This document shows, one piece after another, positions 4,197-58,719 of a stretch of 64,000 nt of DNA; the stretch's first letter is position 1; each line of letters starts with the position of its first letter. The translations under genes and the position numbers were made by a program. The notes under the pieces are model-generated. The model was not told where the DNA came from, made no database searches, and was given only the letters and a program-made list of their open reading frames with translations. The stretch covers positions 536 through 64,535 of the forward strand of contig JAKADZ010000002.1 of NCBI GenBank assembly GCA_021818475.1. The letters run 5' to 3'. This stretch comes from Nanobdellota archaeon (GTDB lineage Archaea > Nanobdellota > Nanobdellia > Pacearchaeales > GW2011-AR1).

Positions 4197-4277
4197 TTGC
4201 ATTTGCGGGGTCGGGAGCAGAGCGATTTCACGAATGCTTGAAAATTTTTAAATGCAATGAGTGGAGTCGGGAGCAGA
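4166..4277 (+). repeat. two tandem copies of repeat module (gatttcRcgaatgc...aaatttaRntgca...gtcgggagcag)
   Basis: Copy a 4166-4220 and copy b 4220-4277; related to 13150-13210, 18490-18560 and 37430-37490. Confidence 0.7.
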
Positions 4278-6239: not shown

Positions 6240-6277
6240 AATGATAAAAAATAAAATTTCACAAATTAAAAAAACTT

Positions 6278-6341
6278 TGATTTCCCGAATAGAAAACCTT
6301 TCCCCATGGGTGGGCGGGTGGGAACTAGGAGGTGTCGTCGC
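6278..6341 (+). repeat. mosaic repeat copy with G4 core gggtgggcgggtggg (6308-6322) and junction motif ggaggtgtcgtcgc abutting the pheT ATG
   Basis: cgaatagaaaa...tttcccc...GGGTGGGCGGGTGGG consensus shared with other spacers. Confidence 0.75.
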
Positions 6342-8000
6342 ATGGCTAATGTAACATTTCCGACAAAACAATTTGAAAAAGAAATAGGGAAACTAGATGA
6401 GAAAATGCAAAACAAGATTGCAATGTTCGGAACTCCCTTGGAAAAATTTGATGATAATGAAATAGAAATCGAAGTTTTCCCGAATCGTCCTGACCTGCTT
6501 TCATATCACGGATTCAAGAGAAGTTTCCTTGCATTCTTAGAGAAAAAAACAGGATTAAAAGAGTACAAACTTAACAAACCGGAAAAGGATTTTGTGGTTA
6601 ATATAGACTCATCGGTAAAAGAGGTTCGTCCGTATACAGTTTGTGCAATTGTTAAAGGATTAAAATTTGACGATGATAAAATAAAAGAGTTAATAGACAT
6701 TCAGGAAAAACTGCATTTCACAATCGGAAGGAGAAGAAAAAAATTAGCTATAGGAATTTATCCTCTTGAAAAAATAAAACTTCCAATAACTTTCAAAGCG
6801 CTTGAACCAGATAAAATTAAATTTATCCCGCTTGAGATGGATCGGGAAATGACAGGGTTGCAAATTTTGCAAAAACATCCTACAGGGAGGGAATATGCGC
6901 ATCTTCTTGCAGGAAAAGCAAGATTTCCTATATTTATTGATGCAGAAGAAAAAATACTGAGTATGCCTCCAATCATTAATTCACATTTAACAGGAAAAGT
7001 AACAAATGACACAAAAGAAGTTTTCATCGAATGTTCGGGTTTTGATTTAAATGCGTTAAATAAATGTCTTAATATCATAACCACAAATCTTTCCGAAATG
7101 GGAGGGGAAATTTTCCAGATGGAAATTCGGGAGCATAAAAATAAAAAGATTACCCCTAATTTCACTCCGGATAAAATGAAGATTAGTATTGAAAATGCAA
7201 ATTCTCTTTTGGGGGTAAATCTGAAAGAGAAAGATATCGAAAAATTTTTGACCAAAATGGGATACAACTACAAAAAAGGGGTTGTTGAAGTTGCACCTTG
7301 GAGAACAGATGTCCTTCACGAAGTAGATTTAATAGAAGACATTGCAATTGCATATGGCTATGAAAATTTTATTCCTGAAATTCCCAAGATAACCTCAATA
7401 GGAAAAGAAGACAAAGAATGGATAGTAAAAAGAAAAATTGCGGAGATATTGACAGGATTAAACATTCTGGAAGTTTCAAATTATCATCTAACTTCAAAAA
7501 ATGACCAGTTTAAAAAAATGTCTTTACCGGAAGAAAAATTTATTGAAGTTGAAGAATCAAAAACAGATTATACTATTTTAAGGAAAGACCTAACTCATTA
7601 TTTGCTGAAAATTTTATCAGAGAATGTTGATTCAGAATATCCTCAGAGAATTTTTGAATCCGGAAAAATTTTCAGAGGGTTGGGCAGGCAGGACGAGATA
7701 GGCTCTGACTTGGCTGAAACAGAGAATCTCGCTCTTGCAATTGCTCCTGCAAATTTCACAGAAGTCAGGCAAATATTAGAATATCTTTTCAGAATGCTGA
7801 ATTTGGAAATAAAAATTTCAGAGCCGGAAAAAGCTCCTGGATACCTTATAGAAGGAAGAGTTGCAGAAGTTAAATTAGATGGTAAGCCAATTGGATTTTT
7901 GGGAGAAGTTCATCCAAGAATTTTGAGAAACTGGAAAATAAAAATGCCTGTATCAATCTTTGAAATCAACTTAGAAAATATATTTGAAAAACTAAGTTGA
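6342..8000 (+). CDS. pheT: phenylalanyl-tRNA synthetase beta subunit (archaeal type)
   Basis: Length and MANVTFPTKQF...FPNRPDLLS N-terminus typical of archaeal PheT; follows pheS; the upstream 12 codons of the ORF are repeat-encoded. Confidence 0.9.
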   Translation: MANVTFPTKQFEKEIGKLDEKMQNKIAMFGTPLEKFDDNEIEIEVFPNRPDLLSYHGFKRSFLAFLEKKTGLKEYKLNKPEKDFVVNIDSSVKEVRPYTVCAIVKGLKFDDDKIKELIDIQEKLHFTIGRRRKKLAIGIYPLEKIKLPITFKALEPDKIKFIPLEMDREMTGLQILQKHPTGREYAHLLAGKARFPIFIDAEEKILSMPPIINSHLTGKVTNDTKEVFIECSGFDLNALNKCLNIITTNLSEMGGEIFQMEIREHKNKKITPNFTPDKMKISIENANSLLGVNLKEKDIEKFLTKMGYNYKKGVVEVAPWRTDVLHEVDLIEDIAIAYGYENFIPEIPKITSIGKEDKEWIVKRKIAEILTGLNILEVSNYHLTSKNDQFKKMSLPEEKFIEVEESKTDYTILRKDLTHYLLKILSENVDSEYPQRIFESGKIFRGLGRQDEIGSDLAETENLALAIAPANFTEVRQILEYLFRMLNLEIKISEPEKAPGYLIEGRVAEVKLDGKPIGFLGEVHPRILRNWKIKMPVSIFEINLENIFEKLS

Positions 8001-12488: not shown

Positions 12489-12596
12489 AAGCCTGTGCTG
12501 AGGATTGAACTCAGGACCCCCACATTTTTGTATGATTTAAGCAGTAATATAAATTCAATACCAATGTGGTACTCTAACCAACTGAGCTACACAGGC
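12489..12596 (-). tRNA. tRNA-Thr(GGU) with 34-nt intron at 37/38
   Basis: Hand-folded: acceptor GCCTGTG/CACAGGC, D arm GCTC/GAGT, anticodon stem CCACA/TGTGG, loop TTGGTAA, T arm CTGAG-TTCAATC-CTCAG; intron 12525-12558. Confidence 0.75.
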
Positions 12597-12968
12597 GTAT
12601 TTATCAAATGTAGCGAAGGTATTTTAGTTTTTCTACCATTATAGTTTCTCTTTTCTAAAAAGAAACCTATGAGCTACACAGGTGTATTTATTAAAATGTA
12701 GCGAAGGTATTTTAGTTTTTCTACCATTATAGTTTCTCTTTTCTAAAAAGAAACCTATGAGCTACACAGGTGTATTTATCAAATGTAGCGAAGGTATTTT
12801 AGTTTTTCTACCATTATAGTTTCTCTTTTCTAAAAAGAAACCTATGAGCTACACAGGTGTATTTATTAAAATGTAGCGAAGGTATTTTAGTTTTTCTACC
12901 ATTATAGTTTCTCTTTTCTAAAAAGAAACCTATGAGCTACACAGGTGTATTTATTAAAATGTAGCGAA
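12584..12968. repeat. tandem array, 4.4 copies of 87/88 bp: tRNA-Thr nt 1-14 plus about 73 nt of its upstream region
   Basis: Units start at 12584, 12671, 12759, 12846 and 12934. The 87/88-bp variants alternate (tatttatcaaatg vs tatttattaaaatg), giving a 175-bp higher-order period. Confidence 0.95.
12620..12633 (-). promoter_or_regulatory. candidate BRE/TATA (GAAAAAC TAAAATA) at -37 to -24 of tRNA-Thr
   Basis: A/T-rich box at the distance expected for archaeal promoters; repeated in every unit of the upstream array. Confidence 0.35.
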
Positions 12969-13006
12969 TAAATACATTTTAAGCATTTCTACTCTTCTTT
13001 TTTCTA

Positions 13007-13250
13007 AGAAACCAGCTGTTCAAAGAACACAACTTCAATCTTTCTTTTCCCTGTTTCTACCACTGTAGGTTCTTTTTTCAAAGAACCCCATTTTCTACCA
13101 TTATAGTTTCTTTCATTTGGCTCTAACGAATGAAAGTGAACGCGAGAGTTTTCACGAGTGCCGGAAAAAAATTTAACAGCAACAAGTGAGGGCTCGAGGA
13201 AAGTGAACTTTTGTTAAAAGAAACCAGCTGTTCAAAGAACACAACTTCAA
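13007..13250. repeat. perfect 32-nt direct repeat pair (13007-13038 and 13219-13250)
   Basis: agaaaccagctgttcaaagaacacaacttcaa occurs twice, 212 bp apart, flanking hairpin-box and mosaic-repeat modules. Confidence 0.9.
13096..13210 (+). repeat. mosaic repeat copy (tttcatttggctctaacgaatgaaagtgaac + gagagttttcacgagtgccggaaaaaaatttaa)
   Basis: Near-identical to 37428-37470; its left part is an inverted match to 12428-12462. Confidence 0.7.
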
Positions 13251-13287
13251 GTTTTCTACCATTATAGTTTCTTTTGTTAAAAGAAAC

Positions 13288-13904: not shown

Positions 13905-13996
13905 GAATAATTAAACAAAAAGATATATAAAAATATTTCTGATGCCCAAGATGATTTTAATCATCGCGCGTCTGACGGTTTCTACAGAGATTTGTT

Positions 13997-14100
13997 TGCA
14001 AATTAAGATGCCCCTCTGCCGAACTCGGGTCGCCACTCATTACAATTATATTTTTTCCGGCACTCGTGAAAACTCTCGGATTTGAATCGGGTTCCCCTCG
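13997..14100 (-). pseudogene. degenerate fragments of the tRNA-Glu 3' half, interleaved with an inverted mosaic-repeat module
   Basis: 14008-14037 and 14078-14097 resemble 14111-14145; 14055-14078 is the reverse complement of cgagagttttcacgagtgccggaa. Confidence 0.55.
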
Positions 14101-14111
14101 TTCAAATAATA

Positions 14112-14305
14112 TGCCCCTGCCGAGATTTGAACTCGGGTCGCCACCGTACTCTAACGAGAGATTGCATTGAGATGCATAGATCTCTCACTCTCATCGAGCT
14201 TAGATCACCTCTCATTAATCGTTTTGAGATCGGATTTTAAATCCTCACTCAATCCACTTTCGCGTTTTGAGAGGGTGGTATCCTTGGCCTCTAGACTACA
14301 GGGGC
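14112..14305 (-). tRNA. tRNA-Glu(CUC) with 121-nt intron at 37/38
   Basis: Exon 1 GCCCCTGTAGTCTAGAGGCCAAGGATACCACCCTCTCA (D arm like the E. coli tRNA-Glu I recall); exon 2 C-GGTGG-CGAC-CCGAG-TTCAAAT-CTCGG-CAGGGGC-A; intron 14147-14267. Confidence 0.7.
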
Positions 14306-14465
14306 ATTTTCTATGCCAATGGAGTATTCAGCAAAATCTTCCTGATTTTAGCCTAGACTATAAAGGCATTTCTTATATCGATATAATTTTATAGACTCTT
14401 AATTTAAAAGAGTTTGCTTCAGCATTCGTAAACTTTTAAAAGTGCAGCAATCCTCTATTTTACAT

Positions 14466-16835: not shown

Positions 16836-16925
16836 AGAAGCGAGAGTTTTCACGATTAGAAAATAATTCCCCTTTGGGTGGGAGGGCGGGAATAACGAGG
16901 AAAACTCGAGGCGGGGATAAATAAT
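16836..16925 (+). repeat. mosaic repeat copy with G4 core gggtgggagggcggg (16876-16890), ending at the pduL ATG
   Basis: gagagttttcacgattagaaaa...cccctttGGGTGGGAGGGCGGGaataacgag. Confidence 0.75.
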
Positions 16926-17540: not shown

Positions 17541-17665
17541 AATCTTCCTCTAGGGGGGAGGGACTAGAGGGTAACAATTTCGCGAATAGAAAACTTTCCC
17601 CTTTGGGCGGGCGGGAATAAGTGAAAGAAATTGCGAATTATGAAAATCGAGGCGGAAGGAGTTAA
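17541..17665 (+). repeat. mosaic repeat copy (ggggggagggactagaggg; atttcgcgaatagaaaa...gggcgggcggg)
   Basis: Shared boxes with the other copies. Confidence 0.7.
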
Positions 17666-18364: not shown

Positions 18365-18424
18365 AAAAATCAAAAATTCTTTAATAACTTTTATCCCATC
18401 TTTTTTCAAGATTATATCTATCAA

Positions 18425-18625
18425 TAAAAATATGTGAACAAACGAGTGAAATTTTTCCCCATTAACTTTTTTCCTTGGCGAAGAAATCTGGCAGAGCCCG
18501 AGCATTTGCACGAATGCGAGAAAAAATTAAATGCAATGAGTGCGGGTGCGAGTTATTTCGGAGCAATTCATCTCAAAATTTTCTCTGAAAATTTTGCACT
18601 TTTTCCTCTTGAAGAGAAAAATTAA
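18425..18625 (+). repeat. mosaic repeat copy (gtgaaatttttccccattaac module, aaattaaatgcaatgag module, A/T hairpin 18574-18596)
   Basis: Collinear with 27530-27660 apart from an about 60-nt insert. Confidence 0.7.
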
Positions 18626-21702: not shown

Positions 21703-21764
21703 AAGAGGAATAAAAAATGATAATTATCCTTGAAGAAAATTTTATTGAGAATATAAAACAAAAA

Positions 21765-21935
21765 ATTTCACGAATAGAATTATTTTTCCCCTTGGGTAGG
21801 CGAGCGATTTCGCAAGGACAAATTTCGGTGGTGGAGGGGTGGATGGCGGAGGATAAAAAATCGAGCGAAGTCGCTAGTTGGGCAGGAATAGATGAGCGAA
21901 ATTTTTTAGGAAAAGGAGATTCAATTTAAAATGAT
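21765..21935 (+). repeat. mosaic repeat copy (atttcacgaatagaa...ccccttgggtaggcgagcgatttcgc...G-rich run)
   Basis: Shared boxes; the 70-aa ORF across it is judged spurious. Confidence 0.7.
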
Positions 21936-23214: not shown

Positions 23215-23330
23215 TTATAGTTTGTGAATAGAATTTTCTATAATTTATTTATGAAATAATTCAATTACTTATTTTTAAAAAAGAGGGGATAACTTTGCCC
23301 TTGGGTGGGCGGGTGGAACAGGGTTAAAAA
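23215..23330 (+). repeat. mosaic repeat copy with core gggtgggcgggtgg (23303-23316)
   Basis: tttgtgaatagaa...ctttgcccttGGGTGGGCGGGTGG, lying between convergent genes. Confidence 0.7.
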
Positions 23331-25134: not shown

Positions 25135-25222
25135 AAGGGAAACTCGAGCGCGAGCGATTTCACGAATAGAAAATTTTTTCCATTCGGGCGGGGGGGCGGG
25201 AGTAGATTAGCGAAATTGCAAG
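25135..25222 (+). repeat. mosaic repeat copy with G4 core gggcgggggggcggg (25186-25200)
   Basis: gcgatttcacgaatagaaaa...cattcGGGCGGGGGGGCGGG; lies between two minus-strand genes. Confidence 0.75.
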
Positions 25223-27484: not shown

Positions 27485-27529
27485 TAAAAATTTCATTAAT
27501 TCTTTTTGTAAATTATATGTATCAGCAAA

Positions 27530-27673
27530 GACTATATGAACAAATGTGTTAAAATTTTTCCTCATTAATTTATTTTTTAAGTGAAGAAATCTGCCGAATG
27601 GCGATTTCGGAGCAATTCATCTCAAAAATTTCTGAAAGAAATTTTTGCAATTTTCCCAAGGGATGGTCGGGAG
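27530..27673 (+). repeat. mosaic repeat copy (ttaaaatttttcctcattaat module, atttcggagcaattcatctc, A/T hairpin 27623-27647)
   Basis: Collinear with 18425-18625. Confidence 0.7.
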
Positions 27674-27824
27674 TTAAGAAACCGATTAGGTGTTCGTCAT
27701 CAGCCATGAGCAGTCTCTCAAAGGGAAAAGCTATTAAGAAGAACCGTTTAGGTGTTCGTCATCAGCCATGAGCAGTATCTTAAAGGGAGAAGCTATTAAG
27801 AAGAACCGATTAGGTTCGTCTTAG
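27674..27824. repeat. 2.5 tandem copies of a 60-62-nt unit running into the fen1 stop codon
   Basis: Units start at 27674, 27734 and 27796 (ttaagaaRaaccgWttaggtgttcgtcatcagccatgagcagt...aaaggga); related to 58611-58719. Confidence 0.9.
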
Positions 27825-32236: not shown

Positions 32237-32848
32237 ATGAATCACAACTATCAAAGTGTTAAAGAAACATTAGCAGAACAAGTAGTAGGAATTGACGAAA
32301 GTTATATTGGGAAAGCGTTAAGGGAATACGGATTGGAAGAGTTTCCAGAAGCAGGATTAAGTGATATTGGATTAAGCAAGTTAGTAAAAACTGCAACAGA
32401 TATTTATCACAGTGAGATAGATTTAACTCCAAGGAAACCAGTAAAAGGAAATTTGCCTGTTCCTAAAGTTAAAAAAGAAAAAGAGAGGAGTTTAGAAGCT
32501 CAAATTCTTAAGAAAGAGACTCCAAAAGTTGCGAGAGGAATTTTAAAAACAATAACTTATCCAACTATTGGAATTACTTTTTTATTTCCCACCATGTACA
32601 AAAAAGTATTGTCTACCGCTAAAGACACCGAAGCCTTTGAAAACTTAACTACCTTTGGAGCAGTAGTGGAAACTATTGGAATGTATTTTATTTTAGCCAA
32701 TACAAACCCCAAATTAATTCCATATGCAATTGCAACTCAGCTATTTACAAATATTGTAAGTGGAGGTTATGAAATTGTTAAGTCTATTTCTGGTTATTTA
32801 AAAAAAAATAAATGTAATGAATATTCAGAACCCCATATTATAGATTAA
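32237..32848 (+). CDS. membrane protein, paralog A (203 aa)
   Basis: Soluble N-terminal part, then TM helices; NPKLIPYAIATQLFTNIVSGGYEIVKS is shared with the next gene. Confidence 0.5.
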   Translation: MNHNYQSVKETLAEQVVGIDESYIGKALREYGLEEFPEAGLSDIGLSKLVKTATDIYHSEIDLTPRKPVKGNLPVPKVKKEKERSLEAQILKKETPKVARGILKTITYPTIGITFLFPTMYKKVLSTAKDTEAFENLTTFGAVVETIGMYFILANTNPKLIPYAIATQLFTNIVSGGYEIVKSISGYLKKNKCNEYSEPHIID

Positions 32849-32864
32849 AAATATCAAAATTAAA

Positions 32865-33800
32865 ATGAATCAAGAATTAACAGCAAGATTAGAATATAGC
32901 GAACAGGATGCAAATGCAATATTTAGCAGAATGCTTGGAAGAAAATATGAAATGCCGAAAGGATTTGTCGATGTAAAATATGCAAAACCAGACGTTGTTG
33001 CAGGATTGCAATATCTTTGCGGAGATGAAGAACTTGCCCAGATAAGTGTTGAATGCTATGATGCAGAAAAAAGAGCAGGATTTGTTGAAGAAGCAGCTGC
33101 AAAAGTTAAGGAGATAACTCAATCTCAAAGTTTAGAAACAAAAGTAAGAAAATCAAAAATAGGAGGAATTAAATCATTTTGTTATGGATTAACAAGCCAG
33201 TTTATAATCCCTACCCTTTTTTATAAAGCTGGAGATGTTAAAGGATGGCCGTTACTTATTGGAACAGTAATTGGAGTCTCTGGGAGTATTATTGGATACA
33301 AATCCCTAATCTACACAAATTCAAAATTAATTCCATATGTTTTAGGAACTCAAATAATTACAAATATCGCAAGTGGAATTTACGAAACTGTTAGAGCGAA
33401 AAGAAAAAGAAAAGAGGAAGAAGATAAAGAAAAAGAGCAAATAAGAATGAGTCAAATGAATGAAGAAGAAGAAAGAAAATTTATCTCTGAAAAAATTGAT
33501 GAGTGGGCAGAAGAGTTTAGAAATGGAGTAGATAGAAAAATTCCAAAAAATGTTAGGGGGCTTAGAGAATTATGTTATAAGACAAATTCATGTCAAGAAT
33601 GCGAATTTTCATTATGTGAATATTTTAGGGGAAATTCAGATAAGAAATATGAACTAACCGAAGAAGAATTAGAAAATATGAATGAAAAAATAAAAAGGGG
33701 GGAAATATCTCATGCCGAGAGAGCTCATTTAATGTATGTTGCTGCACGAAATCTCTCAATTTTTAAAAAAATTGAAAAACCCCGAAAAACAAAAACCTAA
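32865..33800 (+). CDS. membrane protein, paralog B, with charged and Cys-rich C-terminal extension (311 aa)
   Basis: NSKLIPYVLGTQIITNIASGIYETVRA matches paralog A; C-terminal CYKTNSCQECEFSLC. Confidence 0.5.
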   Translation: MNQELTARLEYSEQDANAIFSRMLGRKYEMPKGFVDVKYAKPDVVAGLQYLCGDEELAQISVECYDAEKRAGFVEEAAAKVKEITQSQSLETKVRKSKIGGIKSFCYGLTSQFIIPTLFYKAGDVKGWPLLIGTVIGVSGSIIGYKSLIYTNSKLIPYVLGTQIITNIASGIYETVRAKRKRKEEEDKEKEQIRMSQMNEEEERKFISEKIDEWAEEFRNGVDRKIPKNVRGLRELCYKTNSCQECEFSLCEYFRGNSDKKYELTEEELENMNEKIKRGEISHAERAHLMYVAARNLSIFKKIEKPRKTKT

Positions 33801-33920: not shown

Positions 33921-34145
33921 AGACCTTGCTCGCTGACGCTCGCTTTTTCAATCCTCTTTTTCAACCGAACAAAACTTTTTTATTAGTTAAAATCCGCGTT
34001 AAAATTCTCTTCCGACATTAACAATTTTTCATCGGAAATTTCATCTTGTCCGAAGGCAGATGAAATTTCAATCAATCTCAAAAAATTCTTTCAGAATTTT
34101 TTGCAATTTTTCCTACGGAAGCAAATTTCGAACTAATCCAAACTC
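33921..34145 (+). repeat. composite about 225-nt mosaic element (ttgctcgctgacgctc box, hairpin 34035-34069, A/T hairpin 34079-34103)
   Basis: Collinear with 40570-40840 and 43561-43860. Confidence 0.8.
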
Positions 34146-34173: not shown

Positions 34174-35199
34174 ATGCCTAAAAAAACTTACGAGCCAAAG
34201 CCTTTATTCCTTGAAAGAATGAAAGAACTTCTTGGGAAAGATTTTGATGCTTATATGGAAATTCTGAAGCACGAGCCTGTTCGTTCGTTTAGATGCAATA
34301 CTCTTAAAATTTCCCCGGAAAATCTAAAAAAAAGATTAGAGGAAAAAGGATGGAAAATAAAAATTCCTTTTGAAAAATATCCTGAGATTATGATTGTCGA
34401 AGGTAAATATGATAATAAAATTCCGTCGGGGGCGGGCGGGCGGGATGAGAAGAATAATAAATCCAAATTAATTGACTTAGAGCCGGGAGAATTAGGGCGC
34501 TCAATTGAACATTTGCTTGGATATTATTACATTCAGGAAATTGCAAGCATGCTGCCTGTTTTAGTTTTAGAGCCAAAACCAGAAGAAAGAGTTCTTGATT
34601 TATGCGCTTCCCCTGGAAGCAAGACGACACAAATCGCTGCACGAATGCAAAACTCAGGATTGCTGATTGCAAATGAAGTTAAATTCGGAAGAATAAAAAT
34701 TCTCGCGGCAAATCTTGAAAGATGCGGGGTTATGAATACAATAATCACAAGAAAAGACGGAATTGCTTTATGCAAAAGATTCAAGGATGAAAATTTCTTA
34801 TTCGACAAAATACTTTTAGATGCCCCATGCTCAGGAGAGGGAACAATAAGAAGCACTCCGCGAACTCTTGAAATGTGGAATATAAATACGATTAAACAAC
34901 TTTCAAATCTGCAGAAATCTTTAATTTCATCAGCAATTGAAATTCTAAAACCAAACGGAACATTAATTTATTCTACATGCACGCATGCACCTGAAGAGGA
35001 TGAAGAAATTGTTGATTTCGCTCTGAAAAATTTTAATGTTGAAGTAGAAAAAATAGAACTGCCTCTTAAAACAAGTCCTGGAATTGTTAGGTGGGAAGAG
35101 AAAGAATACGCCGAAGATGTAAAATATTCCTGCAGGGTTTATCCTCAGTTGGCTGATACTGAGGGATTTTTCATTGCAAAGATAAGGAAATTAAAATGA
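34174..35199 (+). CDS. NOL1/NOP2/Sun-family RNA m5C methyltransferase
   Basis: DLCASPGSKTT (SAM), DAPCSGEGT and YSTCT catalytic Cys motifs; contains an in-frame G-rich repeat core at 34428-34444. Confidence 0.85.
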   Translation: MPKKTYEPKPLFLERMKELLGKDFDAYMEILKHEPVRSFRCNTLKISPENLKKRLEEKGWKIKIPFEKYPEIMIVEGKYDNKIPSGAGGRDEKNNKSKLIDLEPGELGRSIEHLLGYYYIQEIASMLPVLVLEPKPEERVLDLCASPGSKTTQIAARMQNSGLLIANEVKFGRIKILAANLERCGVMNTIITRKDGIALCKRFKDENFLFDKILLDAPCSGEGTIRSTPRTLEMWNINTIKQLSNLQKSLISSAIEILKPNGTLIYSTCTHAPEEDEEIVDFALKNFNVEVEKIELPLKTSPGIVRWEEKEYAEDVKYSCRVYPQLADTEGFFIAKIRKLK

Positions 35200-37310: not shown

Positions 37311-37394
37311 GGAAGAAAGAGTCTACAATGGTAGAAATAAGAAAAATAATTTATAATTTTTTCTCTTCTTTTTAAAAGATAACTTCCTTCAAAA

Positions 37395-37505
37395 ATTTCG
37401 CAAATAAAAAAACTTTTCCTTCGGGGAGGCGAGAGTTTTCACGAGTGCCGGAAAAAAATTTAAATGCAACGAGGGGGGCTCGAGTTGGGCGGGAATGATG
37501 GAATA
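37395..37505 (+). repeat. mosaic repeat copy (gagagttttcacgagtgccggaaaaaaatttaaatgcaacgag...gttgggcggg)
   Basis: Near-identical stretch to 13140-13185. Confidence 0.75.
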
Positions 37506-37772: not shown

Positions 37773-37839
37773 TTAAGATAAACTAACTGTAATCCTTTTA
37801 TTACTAATACTCATAATTAGCGTTAAATTTTCTCTATTA

Positions 37840-37875
37840 ACATTTTTCCCTCGGGGGTGGGCGGGAATTTTAATG
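37840..37875 (+). repeat. short mosaic repeat core (tttttccctcGGGGGTGGGCGGGaatttt)
   Basis: Same core as the other copies; lies between convergent genes. Confidence 0.65.
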
Positions 37876-37895
37876 ATTAAAAACAAAAAAATAAT

Positions 37896-40569: not shown

Positions 40570-40840
40570 TGTTTTGGACATTTATTACTCGCTGATGCTC
40601 GCTTTTATTATCACCTCTTTTTCGATAGCATTTGTAAATTTTCTAATCTTCATGGATTTTTACGGCAATAACAAATTCTCATTGGAAATTTTTTCTTCAC
40701 GCGAACGAAGTGAGTGTGCGACGGAAAATTCCTGTTTCCAGTCTTCGAAGACAGGAAAAATTTCATTTATCTCAAAAAATTTTGAAAGAATTTTTTGCAA
40801 ATTCTTCCTCGGGGGGTTGGGATGAGTTGTATCAAGAATC
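40570..40840 (+). repeat. composite mosaic element (ttactcgctgatgctc box, hairpin 40724-40764, A/T hairpin 40773-40797, ggggggttggg)
   Basis: Collinear with 33921-34145 and 43561-43860; the 91-aa ORF across it is judged spurious. Confidence 0.8.
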
Positions 40841-42349: not shown

Positions 42350-42353
42350 AAAG

Positions 42354-42426
42354 CGTCTCGTATAGGACTCGAACCTATGACCCCCTGATTAACAGTCAGG
42401 TGCTCTACCAACTGAGCTAACGAGAC
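42354..42426 (-). tRNA. tRNA-Asn(GUU), no intron
   Basis: GTCTCGT-TA-GCTC-AGTTGGTA-GAGC-A-CCTGA-CTGTTAA-TCAGG-GGGTC-ATAGG-TTCGAGT-CCTAT-ACGAGAC-G. Confidence 0.9.
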
Positions 42427-42515
42427 ATTATGACCTAGTTAGCGAATGAATGCATTAAGCATTTCTACCATTGTAGTTTCTTTCTTCTCAAAGAAACCCA
42501 GTGAGCTAACGAGAC
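42427..42515 (-). repeat. hairpin-box element plus duplicated tRNA-Asn 5' fragment
   Basis: gagctaacgagac is repeated at 42503-42515, 89 bp from 42414-42426. Between them (minus strand) lies GGTTTCTTTGAGAAGAAAGAAAC-TACAATGGTAGAAA. Confidence 0.85.
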
Positions 42516-42548
42516 ACAATTAGAAAAATTTTTTCGATTATTTAAAGG

Positions 42549-43560: not shown

Positions 43561-43860
43561 TTAACATTTTATATTGCTCGCTGACGCTCACTTTATTATC
43601 CCCTCTTTTTTAGTAGAATAAGCCGTTTTAACAATTGAACTCTGCATTAATCTCTTTCGACATTAACAATTTTCATAGGAAATTTTTCCTTGTTAGAAGA
43701 CAGAAAAAATTTCAATTAATTTGCAAGCGATTCTGAAGCGAGCACAGATTATTTTCTTCAAAAAGAGAATTTTCACGAATAGAAATTAATTCCTCTTAGG
43801 GCGGGAATAAATGAACGAGGTCGCGAGCTGGACAGGGAACAGATGCAAATAAGAAGTAAA
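43561..43860 (+). repeat. composite mosaic element (ttgctcgctgacgctc box, hairpin 43679-43713, ttttcacgaatagaaa...agggcggg)
   Basis: Collinear with 33921-34145 and 40570-40840. Confidence 0.8.
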
Positions 43861-45540: not shown

Positions 45541-45650
45541 TTTTTTTCTCATTAACTTATCTTCTAGCGAAGCCAAGCGATTTCGCGAATAGAAATTAAT
45601 TCCTCTTTGGGTGGGCGGGAGGGGAAATGAGCGAAATCGTAGAAAGATAA
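45541..45650 (+). repeat. mosaic repeat copy with G4 core gggtgggcgggagggg (45609-45624)
   Basis: ttttttctcattaactt...gcgatttcgcgaatagaaa...tctttGGGTGGGCGGGAGGGG...gagcgaaatcg. Confidence 0.75.
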
Positions 45651-48885: not shown

Positions 48886-50874
48886 TTATAATTTATTATG
48901 CACTAAAATATTATCTGCATAATAATAATGATAATTATCTATTTCCAGATTATAAGTAATTTGGGGGTCATAAACTTTTTTAATACTTGTAATGATAACC
49001 TTTTCTCCAGAAGAATTGATTAAATAATCACCAACTTTAGCATTTCCGATTTCAGTAAGATGACCATTAACAATTATTGGATGATTAGGAGTTACTTCCA
49101 AATATCCATTAATTAATAGATAGTAATTTCCCATTTCATAAGGATTATGTTCAAATGTCTTTGAAACCCTTGAAATTACTTGTTTCTTAGTTAATTCATT
49201 ATAACTTACAACTTTATCCCCTACTTTTACATCTTCAATATTTTTCAAACTGCCATCTGCCATTAATACTTTAGTTCCAGCTAAGAAACAAGCTTGCACT
49301 CCAACAACATAAGCTTGACTATATTGAATTCCCCCGTTTCCTTTCTTTCCAGTACCAACACTTACCGTAGGATCAGGTGTGGTTGGGGTAGTAGTAGCAG
49401 AAGAGATTAAATTGGATTCGTAACTAGTTGGAACAGTGATAGCTGGAAGGACAACCCCCCCTAATGAAGCACCAGCCTGACTATTTAAAGAAGCATATGT
49501 AGTTGCATCAACTGAAGTATATTGTATGGTTCCATCAGGATTAGTACCTGTTGCTACCAGATATAGAGGGGATGAAACTGTAGTAGGACTTGTAGTAGTC
49601 GTGGTAGTCGTGGTAGTCGTGGTAGTCGTAGTAGTTGATGGAGTGGTGGAAGTTGCTGGAGTTGATGAAATACCTGTAGAACCTGGTGCAGCATTACATC
49701 CTGGTCCAGAAGTACAACCTTGATTAACTATTGGAGTATAGACAGTAACTACTTGTGGCGGGGTGTAGGATGGAATAACCAAAGGAGTTAGGGCGATAGT
49801 TGGTGTAGCAGAAGGTAGAATAGGGTCAATTAAGCCGACAGAGGGTAATTCAGAAATTGGAGTCGGAATAAATCCTGGTGTAGGCTGACCCCCGTAAGGA
49901 TTTACATAACCATAACTAGGGGTAGTAGTACTAACAGCAGGAAGGATAGCTCCATGAGGGGAATTTGTTCCTCCAGTTTGTGAAGAAGAGGGATTGTAGC
50001 AACCAGCTCCCAAATAACATGCTTTAACTGTTCCGGGAGTTGGGTCTCCAAAAAAATTATTATTACATGGAGCAGAAGGAGAAGTAGCAACTATTGTATT
50101 AAAATTATTATTCGCGCCGTATGAAACAAACCATGTTCCTGAAGGAATATTACAGGTTCCCCCCTCATCTGCGCATTTTGTGCATCCTGAAACCTGAATA
50201 TCACAAGGTGAATGAGACACATTCGGAGCAAATGTTATAGCAGCAAGAAATTCTCCTGAACTCCCAAGAGGAATAAAATAATCATTGTTAGGGTTAGAAT
50301 TATGCAGTTGGTAACAAACAGAATTCATCATAATTTTATTAGAATAATCCTGTGGTTTGAGTTCATAACAAAGCCCTCGAATTCCTGCTTTTTGACATTG
50401 AGCTTCAGTTCTAAAACCAGAACCGTGAATTGGGAGATGCACATCAGAATTGGGAGTAACAACTATTGAAGAAGTTACATCATTAAAATTATTATTGACA
50501 AAACAATCATCATTGGAAGATAAAGTCAGGAGATTTCCCTGAAAATTATCATCCGAATATAACTCAACAGTATAACCTGAACTAACTTTAATTGAAGATA
50601 AATCATTATCTTTTATTCCCAAAGCCTGCAACTGACTGAGAGAATAAGCTCCCGGATATAATCCAACCGAATATCCCCCATAACTACAGTCCTGATAAAC
50701 TGTTACAGGAGCTAATATAGATGTAACTGAAGTTGTAGTAGTTGAAGTTGAAGTTGACTTATCAACATTAGACCCAGGAGTAACTCCAGCAGCAGGAGAT
50801 ATAGCCAAAGGAACTAAAAAAAATAAGAATACAAAGCTGATAACTAAAACAGGCAGTATTTTTTGATTGTTCAT
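48886..50874 (-). CDS. secreted protein: signal peptide, beta-gamma-crystallin-like domain, Cys-rich region, S/T/P linker with Thr15 run, C-terminal Hint (intein-like) domain
   Basis: Hint at 48889-49290: CFLAGTKVLMADG (block A), TPNHP (block B), terminal ILVHN followed only by KL. Crystallin-like region: YQDCSYGGYS...DLSSIKV...LYSDDNFQG...VTSSIVV. Confidence 0.75.
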   Translation of the reverse strand: MNNQKILPVLVISFVFLFFLVPLAISPAAGVTPGSNVDKSTSTSTTTTSVTSILAPVTVYQDCSYGGYSVGLYPGAYSLSQLQALGIKDNDLSSIKVSSGYTVELYSDDNFQGNLLTLSSNDDCFVNNNFNDVTSSIVVTPNSDVHLPIHGSGFRTEAQCQKAGIRGLCYELKPQDYSNKIMMNSVCYQLHNSNPNNDYFIPLGSSGEFLAAITFAPNVSHSPCDIQVSGCTKCADEGGTCNIPSGTWFVSYGANNNFNTIVATSPSAPCNNNFFGDPTPGTVKACYLGAGCYNPSSSQTGGTNSPHGAILPAVSTTTPSYGYVNPYGGQPTPGFIPTPISELPSVGLIDPILPSATPTIALTPLVIPSYTPPQVVTVYTPIVNQGCTSGPGCNAAPGSTGISSTPATSTTPSTTTTTTTTTTTTTTTSPTTVSSPLYLVATGTNPDGTIQYTSVDATTYASLNSQAGASLGGVVLPAITVPTSYESNLISSATTTPTTPDPTVSVGTGKKGNGGIQYSQAYVVGVQACFLAGTKVLMADGSLKNIEDVKVGDKVVSYNELTKKQVISRVSKTFEHNPYEMGNYYLLINGYLEVTPNHPIIVNGHLTEIGNAKVGDYLINSSGEKVIITSIKKVYDPQITYNLEIDNYHYYYADNILVHNKL

Positions 50875-50875
50875 T

Positions 50876-51565
50876 TTATCCGCATTTAACCTTTAAATCA
50901 TCAATTTCTTTTTGTTGCTCTTTTATAGCTTCAACCAAAACTCCGACGAGATTTCCATATTCAACAGATTTTAATCCGGTAACTTCATTGGTTGAAACTA
51001 ATTGAGGATAAACTTTTTCAACATCTTGAGCAATTAAACCCACATCTGCTCTTCCGTCGGATTTCCAGTTAAATGAAACTCCCTGAAGTTGCTCTACTTT
51101 AGATAATGCATCCTGAAGTTCACTGATGTTAGTTTTTAATGATCTGTCTGAAGTATAAAGAAAAGCAGTGCCTGATATGTAATTAGCAGAAAGATTTCCG
51201 CCTATTGCAACATTTCCATTTATACTGGTAAGCAAATTCTTGCTCCAGTCAGTAGGTGCAATCAAAAGTTGTGTTCCTGTTTTAGGTTCAATATAAATTT
51301 GACCAGTTGGATTGTATAAACCCCACATTTCTAATTTTGTCTGTCCATAAGTTGAAGAGGAACCTGGGCAGGTTGAAGCGTCACATGTAGAAAATAATTC
51401 CTGATTAACACCTGCACTAAAATCAATTTGAGCCGCAGAATGTCCCGGATTTGGAACAGCTGCATAAACTCCTGCTGCAACTAATGCAATAATTCCCAAA
51501 GTAATTAAAAAGTAAATAGCTTTATTAGACAAACTAGTCTTTTTTAACCCCTTTTTATTCACCAT
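50876..51565 (-). CDS. signal-anchored protein with C-terminal peptidase-S74 (intramolecular chaperone) domain
   Basis: YTSDRSLKTNI (Ser-Lys dyad context), GVSFNWK, VGLIAQDVEKVYPQLV, VEYGNLVGVLVEAIKEQQKEIDDL. Confidence 0.7.
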   Translation of the reverse strand: MVNKKGLKKTSLSNKAIYFLITLGIIALVAAGVYAAVPNPGHSAAQIDFSAGVNQELFSTCDASTCPGSSSTYGQTKLEMWGLYNPTGQIYIEPKTGTQLLIAPTDWSKNLLTSINGNVAIGGNLSANYISGTAFLYTSDRSLKTNISELQDALSKVEQLQGVSFNWKSDGRADVGLIAQDVEKVYPQLVSTNEVTGLKSVEYGNLVGVLVEAIKEQQKEIDDLKVKCG

Positions 51566-55053: not shown

Positions 55054-55104
55054 GCCAAAAATATTCCTCTTATTAATTCTTTTTTAATAAATAAATTTAT
55101 AGAT

Positions 55105-55150
55105 AAAAAAATTTTCCTCTGGGGCAGGCGGGCGGGGACGAAAGGAGGAT
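55105..55150 (+). repeat. short mosaic repeat core (attttcctctGGGGCAGGCGGGCGGGG)
   Basis: Same core; lies between two minus-strand genes. Confidence 0.65.
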
Positions 55151-55211
55151 TTGATATTCCCTCTTGGTAAAGATAATTCATAAAAATAATTAAGAAAAAT
55201 AACTTTTTAAT

Positions 55212-58284: not shown

Positions 58285-58610
58285 CGAAGATTGGATTTAT
58301 TTCTAGATTTGAACAGCGATCTCGCGAGTGTCGGAAATTTAGTTTTCTTTTACACGTTAGTTTTTCTTTCTGCATTTCTGTGCAGAATGGGCGGGATTCC
58401 ACTCGCACTTTTTCTAAAAGAAAAACCACACAACAAGAGAGGTCGGGAGGCGTCGTTCATTTATCACCTCTTTTTTAAAATGCACTACAAACATAACACC
58501 CCCTAAATTTTTCTCCAATAATTAATTTCCAGCGAAGTGCCTTAACAAAGTTGGCGCGGAGCAATCAATCAAAAAAATTCATAGAATTTTTTTGCAAATT
58601 TTTTAAAAAA
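58285..58610 (+). repeat. mosaic repeat region (gcgatctcgcgagtgtcggaaattta, aatgggcggg, gcggagcaatcaatc, A/T hairpin 58570-58594)
   Basis: Same modules as the other spacers; all ORFs across it are judged spurious. Confidence 0.7.
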
Positions 58611-58719
58611 TTATTAGGCTTAACCCTCTCTCAAGGGAGATGTTGATAAGAAGACCGATTATTGTTATTAGGCTTAACCCTCTCTCAAAGGAAAGTTTGA
58701 TAAAGAAAACGATTAGTTG
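58611..58719. repeat. two tandem copies of a 54-55-nt unit ending 3 nt from the uppS stop
   Basis: ttattaggcttaaccctctctcaaRgga...gataaRaaRaMcgatta, twice; related to 27674-27824. Confidence 0.9.

What the first reader, a model, noticed from the sequence alone, without database searches (positions are those of the whole stretch)
33921..34145. Three collinear 225-300-nt composite elements whose hairpins covary, consistent with a structured RNA or protein-bound DNA family
- Copies at 33921-34145, 40570-40840 and 43561-43860 share the same order of boxes: tt(g/a)ctcgctga(c/t)gctc(g/a)cttt, cctcttttt, a first hairpin, an A/T hairpin, then caatttt(t)cc and a G-rich end.
- The first hairpin keeps its outer stem (gaaattt / aaatttc) while the inner stem changes in a compensatory way. 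It reads catct...agatg at 34035-34069 and cctgt...acagg at 40724-40764; the 43679-43713 copy is weaker.
- The A/T hairpin exists in at least five versions that stay palindromic while the sequence changes:
  - caaaaaattct-ttc-agaattttttg (34079)
  - caaaaatttct-gaa-agaaatttttg (27623)
  - caaaaaaattc-ata-gaatttttttg (58570)
  - caaaaaatt-ttgaaag-aattttttg (40773)
  - caaaatttt-ctctg-aaaattttg (18574)

Preserved pairing despite sequence change argues that the structure is under selection.
Basis: seen in the sequence. Interest (0 to 1): 0.65.

Follow-up and report, generated by a model that had tools for sequence, protein, structure and literature searches.

The report
Dispersed hairpin-forming non-coding repeat family
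The three look-alike stretches are real members of a larger, species-restricted family of non-coding intergenic elements in a tiny DPANN archaeon, and their hairpins keep pairing while the sequence changes, so they are probably small structured RNA units that have multiplied, though their function is unknown.

Summary
Three homologous non-coding elements lie on the + strand at 33926-34122, 40577-40835 and 43572-43765. They are not a closed set. I saw at least 10 related copies in about 115 kb of contigs from this Pacearchaeota-like archaeon from mine drainage. All are built from shared modules.

**Structure**
- Hairpin 1 is a two-tier hairpin. Across 11 copies 97.6% of cells pair and 7 of 8 pairs change on both sides (0/500 shuffles).
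- The A/T hairpin pairs in 100% of cells across 6 copies, and 5 of 11 pairs are compensated.
- G·U pairs outnumber C·A mismatches 5 to 1 on the sense strand. This points to a single-stranded, strand-specific structure.

**What it is not**
- There is no conserved ORF, no terminal inverted repeat, no target-site duplication and no Rfam match.

**Distribution**
- A sister species has a small ORF where copy 2 lies.
- Metagenome contigs show further mosaic copies.
- Nearly all modules in 74 kb face the same way, whatever the orientation of the flanking genes.

**Interpretation**
- Best reading: multiplied small transcription units that make structured RNA ending at an A/U hairpin and U-tract.
- Main rival: DNA-level hairpin repeats of the REP or IS200 kind.
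- Transcription could not be tested.

The parts
33926..34122 (+). c1, complete c-type element. Box 1 33926-33946; T-box AATCCTCTTTTTC 33950-33962; GAACAAA box 33965-33975; TATA-like GTTAAAATTC 33998-34007; CGACATTAACAA 34013-34024; hairpin 1 34034-34069; linker AATCAATCT 34070-34078; A/T hairpin 34079-34103; GCAATTTTTCC plus mini hairpin TTCC-TAC-GGAA 34103-34122.
40577..40835 (+). c2, c-type element. Box 1 40585-40605; T-box TTATCACCTCTTTTTC 40608-40623; duplicated hairpin-1 5' arm 40684-40697; inserted CACGCGAACGAAGTGAGTGTGCGAC 40698-40722; hairpin 1 inner copy 40723-40764; A/T hairpin 40773-40797; X-core-like G-rich end 40797-40826. The borders come from comparison with the sister species.
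43572..43765 (+). c3, c-type element without the A/T hairpin. Box 1 43574-43594; T-box TTATCCCCTCTTTTTT 43596-43611; CGACATTAACAA 43658-43669; hairpin 1 43678-43713, with one C·A mismatch.
43766..43826 (+). Separate X element abutting c3.
18389..18620 (+). e4, e-type relative without box 1. T-box 18391-18406; TTTTTCCCCATTAAC 18452-18466; hairpin 1 split by a nested Y (promoter-like) module 18498-18552; A/T hairpin 18574-18596.
27500..27673 (+). e5, e-type relative. TTTTTCCTCATTAAT 27555-27569; hairpin 1 27581-27613; A/T hairpin 27623-27647; X-core end 27647-27673.
58459..58610 (+). e6, e-type relative. T-box 58461-58476; hairpin 1 58532-58562; A/T hairpin 58570-58594.

Best explanation
c1-c3 are the box-1-bearing subfamily of a larger, lineage-restricted family of non-coding, modular intergenic elements of about 170-300 nt.

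**Shared layout**
- a T-rich or TATA-like box (TTATCNCCTCTTTTTT);
- a (T)TGAACAAA box;
- an A/U-rich stretch, UUAAAAUUUUUCCNCAUUAAC;
- hairpin 1: a variable outer stem, a 1-2 nt bulge, a 3-bp inner stem and a GAA(N) loop. In e-type copies a purine-rich internal loop, GCGAAG...CGGAGC, lies below it;
- a linker of about 10 nt;
- a perfect A/U hairpin whose 3' arm and tail carry U5-6 runs;
- often a UUCC-loop-GGRR mini hairpin or G-rich X core.

**Proposed mechanism**
Each copy is a small autonomous unit transcribed from the strand shown. It gives a structured RNA of roughly 80-250 nt that ends at the A/U hairpin and U-tract. Oligo-U is the archaeal termination signal. Hairpin 1 would be the functional part, either a protein-binding or a stability module. 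In c-type copies the GC-rich 21-bp box 1 lies next to a TATA-like box, where archaeal repressors usually bind. The units have multiplied and been reshuffled like dispersed mosaic repeats.

**Shown here**
- homology and modularity;
- covariation and the strand asymmetry of wobble pairs;
- absence of a conserved ORF, terminal inverted repeats, target-site duplications and any Rfam match;
- gain or loss relative to a sister species.

**Inferred only**
- transcription, the promoter, terminator function and an operator role for box 1.
For: **Family and homology**
- establish the c1-c3 and e4-e6 copies.
- Extra copies are e7 and the copies in L269 and L270.
- Metagenome contigs give a fourth box-1 copy and mosaic joints. 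Depth over the modules is about 3-13 times genome depth.

**Structure**
- Hairpin 1: 11 copies, 97.6% of cells paired, 7 of 8 pairs changed on both sides, score 0.861 against 0.275, 0/500 shuffles. Slid controls pair at 25-50%.
- RNAalifold predicts the same hairpin on an unguided alignment, with 6 of 9 pairs compensated.
- A/T hairpin: 100% of cells paired, 5 of 11 pairs compensated.
- The per-pair table has 5 G·U/U·G pairs and one C·A mismatch on the sense strand. On the other strand these would read as 5 mismatches and 1 wobble.
- c1's 3' half folds with z = -5.3.

**Autonomy from neighbours**
- Copies keep one orientation whether the flanking genes are +/+, +/- or -/-.

**Promoter-like context**
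- TATA-like boxes lie 27-33 nt upstream of hairpin 1, and about 30 nt upstream of the TGAAC box. I read this.
- The genome's real promoters read TTTAAAWA or TTTATAAA.
- The TATA-like box next to c2's box 1 aligns with the promoter region of a + strand small ORF in the sister species.

**Non-coding**
- Stops interrupt every frame in c1 and c3. There is no similarity to the small ORFs of relatives.
Against: - No expression data exist. The three same-study metatranscriptomes contain nothing from this organism.
- The promoter calls rest on A/T-rich boxes in a 33% G+C genome. These boxes lack a clear BRE (TFB recognition element), and the BRE-like GGAAAAA lies on the opposite strand.
- Functional small RNA genes do not usually tolerate nested insertions in their main hairpin (c2, e4) or loss of the terminator hairpin (c3).
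- No c-type left-part match was found in about 46 kb from relatives. A sister species with 95% FtsZ identity lacks c2 at the orthologous site.
- The almost uniform orientation over 74 kb is not explained by independent RNA genes.
- The hairpin-1 alignment was set by hand with the structure in mind.
Confidence: 0.4

Rival explanations
1. These are selfish DNA-level hairpin repeats. The hairpins are recognised in single-stranded DNA by a trans-acting enzyme, such as a REP/RAYT-like or IS200/IS605-like Y1 HUH transposase, or by a recombination system. Copies insert at replication forks, which fixes their orientation. Pairing is maintained because the enzyme needs the hairpin, or by templated quasi-palindrome correction. 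Any RNA is incidental.
For: - Orientation is almost uniform: about 20 modules on the + strand and 1 weak one on the - strand across 74 kb, although gene orientation flips at about 39.5 kb.
- c2 is absent from the orthologous site in a sister species. X elements sit at non-orthologous sites in that species.
- Other copies are mosaic recombinants.
- Insertions are nested in hairpin loops: c2, and Y inside e4.
- The A/T hairpin loop is flipped between copies (TTC versus GAA), as small hairpin inversions at the DNA level would produce.
- G·T wobbles are also tolerated in single-stranded DNA hairpins.
Against: - No transposase-like gene appears among the genes with Pfam calls over about 50 kb (window 24174-73465), nor in my reading of the translations of the remaining window ORFs, which were not scanned against Pfam.
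- The element ends are not hairpins. Box 1 is unpaired here, and both hairpins lie in the 3' half.
- No conserved flanking tetranucleotide was seen.
- The most conserved parts are unpaired boxes, while the stems vary. This is the opposite of transposase-recognised ends.
- In other contigs and in the sister species, modules occur on both strands.
Confidence: 0.3
2. These are cis-acting transcription punctuation. The elements are terminator or insulator cassettes in gene 3' regions. T-runs, together with the palindromic A/T hairpin that carries T-runs on both strands, stop RNA polymerase from either side. They may also stabilise mRNA 3' ends, as REP and BIME elements do in bacteria.
For: - The ten c/e copies seen lie between convergent genes (5), downstream of a same-sense gene (2), or between two same-direction genes in antisense orientation (3). 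None lies between divergent genes.
- c1 carries six T5-6 runs on the + strand within 190 nt.
- The A/T hairpin is a perfect palindrome with T6 on both strands.
Against: - Archaeal termination needs only oligo-T. This gives no reason to conserve hairpin 1, the CATTAAC box or box 1.
- Three copies are antisense to both neighbours.
- Relatives manage without these elements at the same sites.
- c3 lacks the A/T hairpin.
Confidence: 0.2
3. These are ordinary MITEs, with terminal inverted repeats and target-site duplications, or decayed copies of a small protein gene.
For: - Size is 200-300 nt, the elements are multicopy and intergenic, and one copy is absent in a sister species.
- c2 overlaps a 91-aa ORF with a hydrophobic start.
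- Sister species have small membrane-protein ORFs at the c2 and c3 sites.
Against: - The two ends share no inverted repeat. The left end is ACATTTATTACTCGC and the right end is ...GGGATGAG. There is no duplication at the c2 borders defined against the sister species.
- The same frame has stops and no start codon in c1 and c3.
- tblastn of the relatives' small ORFs finds nothing in the elements.
- Indels between copies are not multiples of three.
Confidence: 0.04

Closest known systems
Pneumococcal BOX elements (boxA-boxB-boxC mosaic repeats)
   Same: - Both are non-coding, intergenic and multicopy.
- Both are built from a fixed order of modules that can be missing, duplicated or carry insertions.
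- Both are predicted to fold into stable stem-loops.
- Neither has an associated transposase gene nearby.
   Different: - There is no sequence relation, and the host is an archaeon.
- The core here is two independent hairpins rather than A-C pairing.
- Orientation is strongly uniform.
- A GC-rich box 1 is shared with other DPANN lineages.
REP/BIME elements of enterobacteria (and RAYT-mobilised REPINs)
   Same: - Both are extragenic hairpins that covary in their stems and combine with other motifs into mosaics.
- Both are enriched at gene 3' ends and between convergent genes.
- REP/BIME elements have roles in termination and mRNA stability.
   Different: - REPs are palindromes of about 35 nt, often in inverted pairs.
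- The units here are 170-300 nt with long conserved unpaired boxes.
- No RAYT gene was seen.
- The REP-like short form of box 1 is found in Iainarchaeum STA_60, not in this genome.
IS200/IS605-derived non-autonomous elements (PATEs) and their omega/reRNAs
   Same: - Both are hairpin-bearing elements without terminal inverted repeats or target-site duplications.
- Both show an orientation bias of the kind expected from insertion into single-stranded DNA at replication forks.
- PATEs are known in archaea.
   Different: - Those elements have subterminal hairpins at both ends and conserved cleavage tetranucleotides.
- Here both hairpins are in the 3' half, the 5' end is unpaired, and no TnpA or TnpB gene is in view.
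- There is no Rfam HEARO or omega RNA hit.
Multicopy 'sibling' small RNAs of bacteria (e.g. Qrr, LhrC, and Sib antitoxin RNAs)
   Same: - Several paralogous units of 80-200 nt, each with its own promoter-like box.
- A conserved unpaired box followed by hairpins and a terminator-like hairpin with a U-tract.
- Lineage-restricted.
   Different: - Transcription is not shown here.
- Copy number and mosaicism are higher.
- Insertions occur in the main hairpin.
- No conserved toxin ORF lies opposite.
Recurrent G-quadruplex-type intergenic motifs with an adjacent C-run in Methanomicrobiaceae (Chashchina et al. 2021, PMC8044849)
   Same: This applies to the X module that forms the 'G-rich end'. It is a repeated intergenic G3N1-3G3 run next to a complementary C-run, able to form either a hairpin or a G4. 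Such motifs are common between tail-to-tail genes, and their orientation is unrelated to the neighbouring genes.
   Different: - The sequence and lineage differ.
- In the Methanomicrobiaceae motif the C-rich tract lies 3' of the G-runs, whereas here the C-run lies 5' of them.
- Here the motif is enclosed by a covarying closing stem with GA/GA flanks.
- Here it is on one strand only.

Membership tests
MITE (miniature inverted-repeat transposable element) | Terminal inverted repeats | tested here: not met
   The ends of c1-c3 are unrelated in reverse complement.
MITE (miniature inverted-repeat transposable element) | Target-site duplication flanking the insertion | tested here: not met
   The c2 borders, defined against sister-species L139, show no duplication. 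The element replaces most of a small ORF.
REP/BIME-type extragenic palindromes | Short imperfect palindrome as the basic unit, extragenic, with compensatory changes in the stem | tested here: inconclusive
   Hairpins with compensated stems are present. However, the unit is 170-300 nt with long unpaired conserved boxes.
REP/BIME-type extragenic palindromes | Cognate RAYT (Y1 HUH) gene in the genome | not testable with these tools
   Only about 115 kb of this organism is in hand. None was found among the called genes.
IS200/IS605-derived PATE | Subterminal hairpins at both ends and conserved cleavage tetranucleotides | tested here: not met
   The 5' end (box 1) is unpaired in this genome. Both hairpins lie in the 3' half. 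No shared flank motif was seen.
IS200/IS605-derived PATE | Orientation tied to replication direction | tested here: inconclusive
   Orientation is uniform over 74 kb. No origin or terminus is in view, and modules occur on both strands in other contigs.
Any Rfam 15 RNA family | Covariance-model match at gathering score or E <= 5 | tested here: not met
   Only tRNAs reach the gathering score. No hit of E <= 5 overlaps any element.
Archaeal box C/D sRNA | C box RUGAUGA near the 5' end and D box CUGA near the 3' end, forming a K-turn next to a terminal stem | tested here: not met
   Box 1 contains CUGAYG but no C/D pair or terminal stem. This was read directly from the sequence.
Small RNA gene (generic) | Discrete transcript with defined 5' and 3' ends | not testable with these tools
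   The same-study metatranscriptomes X6-X8 contain no contigs of this organism.
Small RNA gene (generic) | Secondary structure conserved by covariation, strand-specific | tested here: met
   There are 5 G·U pairs against 1 C·A mismatch on the sense strand.
Type I toxin-antitoxin or small-protein gene | Conserved short ORF with a start codon in all copies | tested here: not met
   No frame is open in all three copies on either strand.

The most novel reading that the evidence does not exclude
The elements are a new class of multicopy, independently transcribed structured small RNAs of Pacearchaeota. Their conserved unpaired A/U-rich box (UUUUUCCNCAUUAAC, complementary to GUUAAUG start-codon contexts of this organism's mostly leaderless mRNAs) and their hairpin 1, with its purine-rich internal loop, would act in trans on translation or RNA stability. 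Expression of the c-type copies would be controlled through box 1. Box 1 is a 21-bp site that also occurs in Iainarchaeota and other Nanoarchaeota, and so would mark a DPANN-wide DNA- or RNA-binding factor.
Probability: 0.15. Interest if true: 0.75.

Novelty: new variant of a known kind. Interest (0 to 1): 0.5.

Why it matters
DPANN archaea have very small, gene-dense genomes, and almost nothing is known about their non-coding RNA or repeat content.

- **A puzzle for streamlined genomes.** A family of structured, covarying elements fills many intergenic gaps, is absent from near relatives, and faces one way across at least 74 kb. It is either a set of lineage-specific regulatory RNAs or a mobile hairpin repeat with no visible transposase.
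- **A concrete handle.** Either reading offers a way to study gene regulation or genome dynamics in an uncultivated symbiont lineage.
- **Box 1.** This motif is shared between DPANN phyla and could lead to a conserved nucleic-acid-binding factor.
- **Annotation.** Gene callers place spurious ORFs on these elements, for example the 91-aa ORF over c2.

Tried and rejected
**Searches that found nothing useful**
- Rfam at gathering score and at E <= 5 gave nothing on the elements.
- Same-study metatranscriptomes X6-X8 gave only spurious matches at 90-95% likeness.
- A genome-contig scan for the box-1 18-mer gave about 118 hits, nearly all chance hits in high-GC bacteria. Only Iainarchaeum STA_60 (4 loci) and Nanoarchaeota H52 (1 locus) are meaningful.
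- The metagenome scan for the box-1 21-mer returned 15 loci. Most look like chance hits or are unrelated, and three are the same H52 locus.
- Two viral-contig scans gave noise and one chance hit in a high-GC phage.
- Strain variants of the same species are 99.4-100% identical, with no change in c1, so they carry no information.
- The left-end protein look-up found nothing on record.

**Readings considered and rejected**
- Protein-coding or pseudogene.
- Classical MITE.
- By reading the sequence only: a hammerhead core (CUGANGA is not met, because the seventh base is C), box C/D, the archaeal origin ORB, dif, and tRNA-arm origins for box 1.
- Similarity of box 1 to bacterial 16S rRNA is only a 9-mer.

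**Not pursued**
- A covariance model of hairpin 1 plus the A/T hairpin was not built. MAFFT put the loops out of register, so I used hand-registered rows plus RNAalifold instead.

Full report
**Source and setting**

The window has 33% G+C and carries archaeal genes: PolB, MCM, RFC, FEN1, TBP, eIF1A, eIF2-beta and FtsZ. It also has tRNAs with introns. Four mine-drainage metagenomes hold 97-99% of its sampled words. Its FtsZ is 84-95% identical to proteins that sources label Pacearchaeota or Nanoarchaeota. Most genes have a TTTAAAWA or TTTATAAA box 25-35 nt before the ATG, so most mRNAs are probably leaderless.

**Checking the observation**

The three copies are real, lie on the + strand and are intergenic.
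- Box 1 (CTCGCTGAYGCTCRCTTT) occurs three times against 0.05 expected.
- c1 and c3 share a 71-nt block covering CGACATTAACAA and hairpin 1 (E = 3e-12).

Four corrections apply.
- c3 has no A/T hairpin.
- The 'G-rich end' is a separate module. It is weak in c1, present in c2, and a full independent element at 43766-43826 beside c3.
- c2 carries a duplicated hairpin-1 5' arm with about 25 nt inserted.
- The family is larger than three.

**The wider family**

Three further elements in the window share the same order of boxes but lack box 1: e4 at 18389-18620, e5 at 27500-27673 and e6 at 58459-58610. The shared order is:
- T-box;
- (T)TGAACAAA;
- TTAAAATTTTTCCNCATTAAC;
- hairpin 1;
- GGAGCAATTCATCTC;
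- A/T hairpin;
- GCAATTTTCC plus a mini hairpin.

More copies lie outside the window.
- One is 1 kb beyond the window end (e7, L145:12650-12885).
- Others are on two more contigs from the same study that share this family and the window's G+C content; whether they come from the same organism is not shown (L269:3020-3140, L270:6100-6260, L270:2745-2900).
- Logan contigs of the four DNA runs, at about genome depth, show a fourth box-1 copy with a different 5' flank.
- The same contigs show joints that splice pieces of different window copies: 40622>43651, 40798>45574, 43692>45574 and 21813>27623>17577. These indicate more mosaic copies elsewhere. Depth over the modules is 3-13 times the genome level.

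The same intergenic regions hold other modules.
- X is a G-run element closed by a stem. About 13 copies were found.
- Y has the same ends as X, placed around a consensus promoter.
- Z is a 95-nt nested insert.

**Structure**

Hairpin 1 is two-tiered. It has an outer stem, a 1-2 nt bulge, a 3-bp inner stem and a GAA(N) loop. In e-type copies it sits on a purine-rich internal loop framed by the conserved GCGAAG...CGGAGC.
- Outer stems are AAAUC/GAUUU, CGCC/GGCG, UGCC/GGCG, CAUC/GAUG and CAUCU/AGAUG.
- In 11 copies, 97.6% of 84 cells pair and 7 of 8 pairs change on both sides.
- The covariation score is 0.861 against 0.275 for shuffles (0/500). Slid partners pair at only 25-50%.
- That alignment was registered by hand using the conserved flanks. 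As a check, RNAalifold on an unguided MAFFT alignment predicted the same hairpin, with 6 of 9 pairs compensated.

The A/T hairpin pairs in 100% of cells across six copies, with 5 of 11 pairs compensated (0/500).

In one search the sense strand has five G·U/U·G pairs and one C·A mismatch. On the opposite strand this would be five mismatches and one wobble. This favours a structure formed by the sense strand alone.

The loop of the A/T hairpin is inverted between copies (TTC versus GAA). This is a DNA-level event. For a perfect palindrome, templated correction could mimic selection.

**What the elements are not**

- No Rfam family matches.
- No frame is open in all copies on either strand. The 91-aa ORF over c2 starts in the neighbour's promoter and has stops in c1 and c3.
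- tblastn with the relatives' small ORFs finds nothing.
- The ends are not inverted repeats, and c2 has no target-site duplication.

**Comparative evidence**

A sister species from the same study (FtsZ 95% identical; L139, L140) keeps the genes flanking c2. Between them it has a 50-aa membrane ORF. The flanks align up to GTTTTG on the left and from the ORF's last codons on the right.

Another relative (FtsZ 87% identical) has an 86-aa ORF at the c3 site.

No c-type left-part match was found in about 46 kb from relatives, apart from box-1 itself. The sister species has X elements, but at other sites and on both strands. The family is therefore young or fast-moving.

**Box 1**

The 18-mer recurs in two other DPANN lineages.
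- In four loci of an Iainarchaeum MAG it lies in the loop of a short hairpin whose stem covaries (TTTCGAA/TTCGAAA versus TTTTGAA/TTCAAAA).
- It occurs once in a Hainich Nanoarchaeota MAG, followed by TTTAATTTTAAATT.

In c2 and c3 the box-1 core is bracketed by TATA-like direct repeats. The sister species has a single TTTATTAA there, about 30 nt before its small ORF. Box 1 therefore lies in or next to a promoter. I infer a protein-binding (operator-like) site, but nothing tests this.

**Orientation and context**

In the window plus 10 kb, nhmmer finds 13 X cores, 7 c/e cores and 6 A/T modules on the + strand, and one weak X on the - strand. Gene orientation nevertheless switches at about 39.5 kb. 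Taking about 20 against 1, a two-sided binomial gives about 2e-5. This is my own arithmetic, and the copies may not be independent.

The ten c/e copies lie:
- between convergent genes (5);
- after a same-sense gene (2);
- antisense between co-directional genes (3);
- between divergent genes (0).

**Interpretation**

Covarying, strand-specific hairpins, conserved unpaired boxes, TATA-like boxes at steady spacing, a terminal A/U hairpin with U-runs, and independence from neighbouring genes fit small autonomous RNA units that have multiplied (confidence 0.4).

Uniform orientation, gain and loss between species, mosaic copies and nested insertions fit DNA-level hairpin repeats of the REP or IS200 kind (0.3). 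No transposase gene or end signature supports that reading, however.

A purely cis-acting terminator or insulator role is possible (0.2). It does not explain hairpin 1 or box 1.

These readings overlap, as they do for BOX and REP elements in bacteria. Transcription data and a complete genome would decide between them.

**Verdict**

This is a real, statistically supported family of structured non-coding elements. It is unrelated to any curated RNA family, and its function is unknown. It is a new variant of the known kind 'dispersed structured intergenic repeats / multicopy small RNA units', found in a lineage where none has been described as far as I know and as far as two literature searches showed.

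Noticed in passing
1236-1305, 6274-6345, 16838-16912, 17570-17640, 21759-21915, 23270-23325, 25150-25222, 37390-37440, 37827-37880, 43766-43826, 45573-45642, 55094-55160 (all + strand): X family. These are 60-75-nt units with a conserved core, CGAAUAGAAA...UUCCCC-loop-GGGNGGGNGGG(NGGG)...AAUAACGAG. The G-runs fit a G-quadruplex motif, and an upstream C-run could pair with them instead. A closing stem differs from copy to copy but stays paired: in 6 chosen copies 91.5% of cells pair and 5 pairs change on both sides. Several units follow a degenerate half unit. A sister species has the family at other sites.
   Followed up: partly
4215-4258, 13142-13195, 37429-37480, 18498-18552 (+); 14040-14095 (-): Y modules. 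They have the same ends as X but enclose a consensus promoter, GAAAAAAATTTAAATGCAA. One lies just upstream of the PheRS-alpha gene. One is nested inside the loop of e4's hairpin 1. One, on the minus strand, lies directly upstream of a truncated tRNA 3' half.
   Followed up: partly
13990-14310 (- strand): An apparent tRNA-Glu(CUC) gene with an intron of about 125 nt, missed by ARAGORN and by Rfam at both thresholds. Extra T-arm and 3'-half-like fragments lie next to it. They may be split-tRNA or pseudo-tRNA remnants.
   Followed up: no
12583-13282; also 42455-42529: Tandem 88-nt repeats that copy the upstream region plus the first ~14 nt of the minus-strand intron-containing tRNA at 12490-12596. 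A related unit lies upstream of tRNA-Asn at 42353-42426.
   Followed up: no
27680-27803; 58610-58715; L145:12710-12760: Two tandem units of about 62 nt (AACCGATTAGGTGTTCGTCATCAGCCATGAGCAG...CAAAGGGA...AAGAAG) follow e5. Related tandem units follow e6. A related piece is inserted inside e7.
   Followed up: no
21800-21895 and L145:18963-19047: Z module. This is a G-rich insert of about 95 nt (GCGATTTCGCAAGGACAAATTTCGGTGGTGGAGGGGTGGATGGCGGAGG...) present in two nearly identical copies, each nested in an X-like core.
   Followed up: no
33950-33962, 40608-40623, 43596-43611, 18391-18406, 58461-58476 (+); 23276-23292 (-): The T-box TTATCACCTC(T6) resembles, from memory, the usual 3' end of 16S rRNA on the + strand. 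On the - strand it is a perfect Shine-Dalgarno sequence (GAGGTGAT). Only e6 has an ATG at the right spacing, opening a 37-aa ORF.
   Followed up: partly
L014:2088, L066:358, L089:7127(-), L113:555: An Iainarchaeum MAG carries a REP-like hairpin repeat of about 50 nt with the box-1 sequence in its loop. Its stem covaries, and GGGAAAA follows in three of four copies (GGAAAAC in L066).
   Followed up: partly
48886-50874 (-) and 50876-51565 (-): A 662-aa Ser/Thr-rich surface-type protein ends in a Hint/intein-like domain (CFLAGTKV...VHN). The gene next to it has a Peptidase_S74 hit.
   Followed up: no
34428-34445: The RsmF-like methyltransferase gene contains an in-frame GGGGGCGGGCGGGCGGG run, encoding SGAGGRDE. 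It cross-matches the X cores in repeat searches.
   Followed up: no
32237-32848 and 32865-33800: Two adjacent paralogous genes of unknown function lie just upstream of c1. They share a 79-nt block at 78% identity.
   Followed up: no
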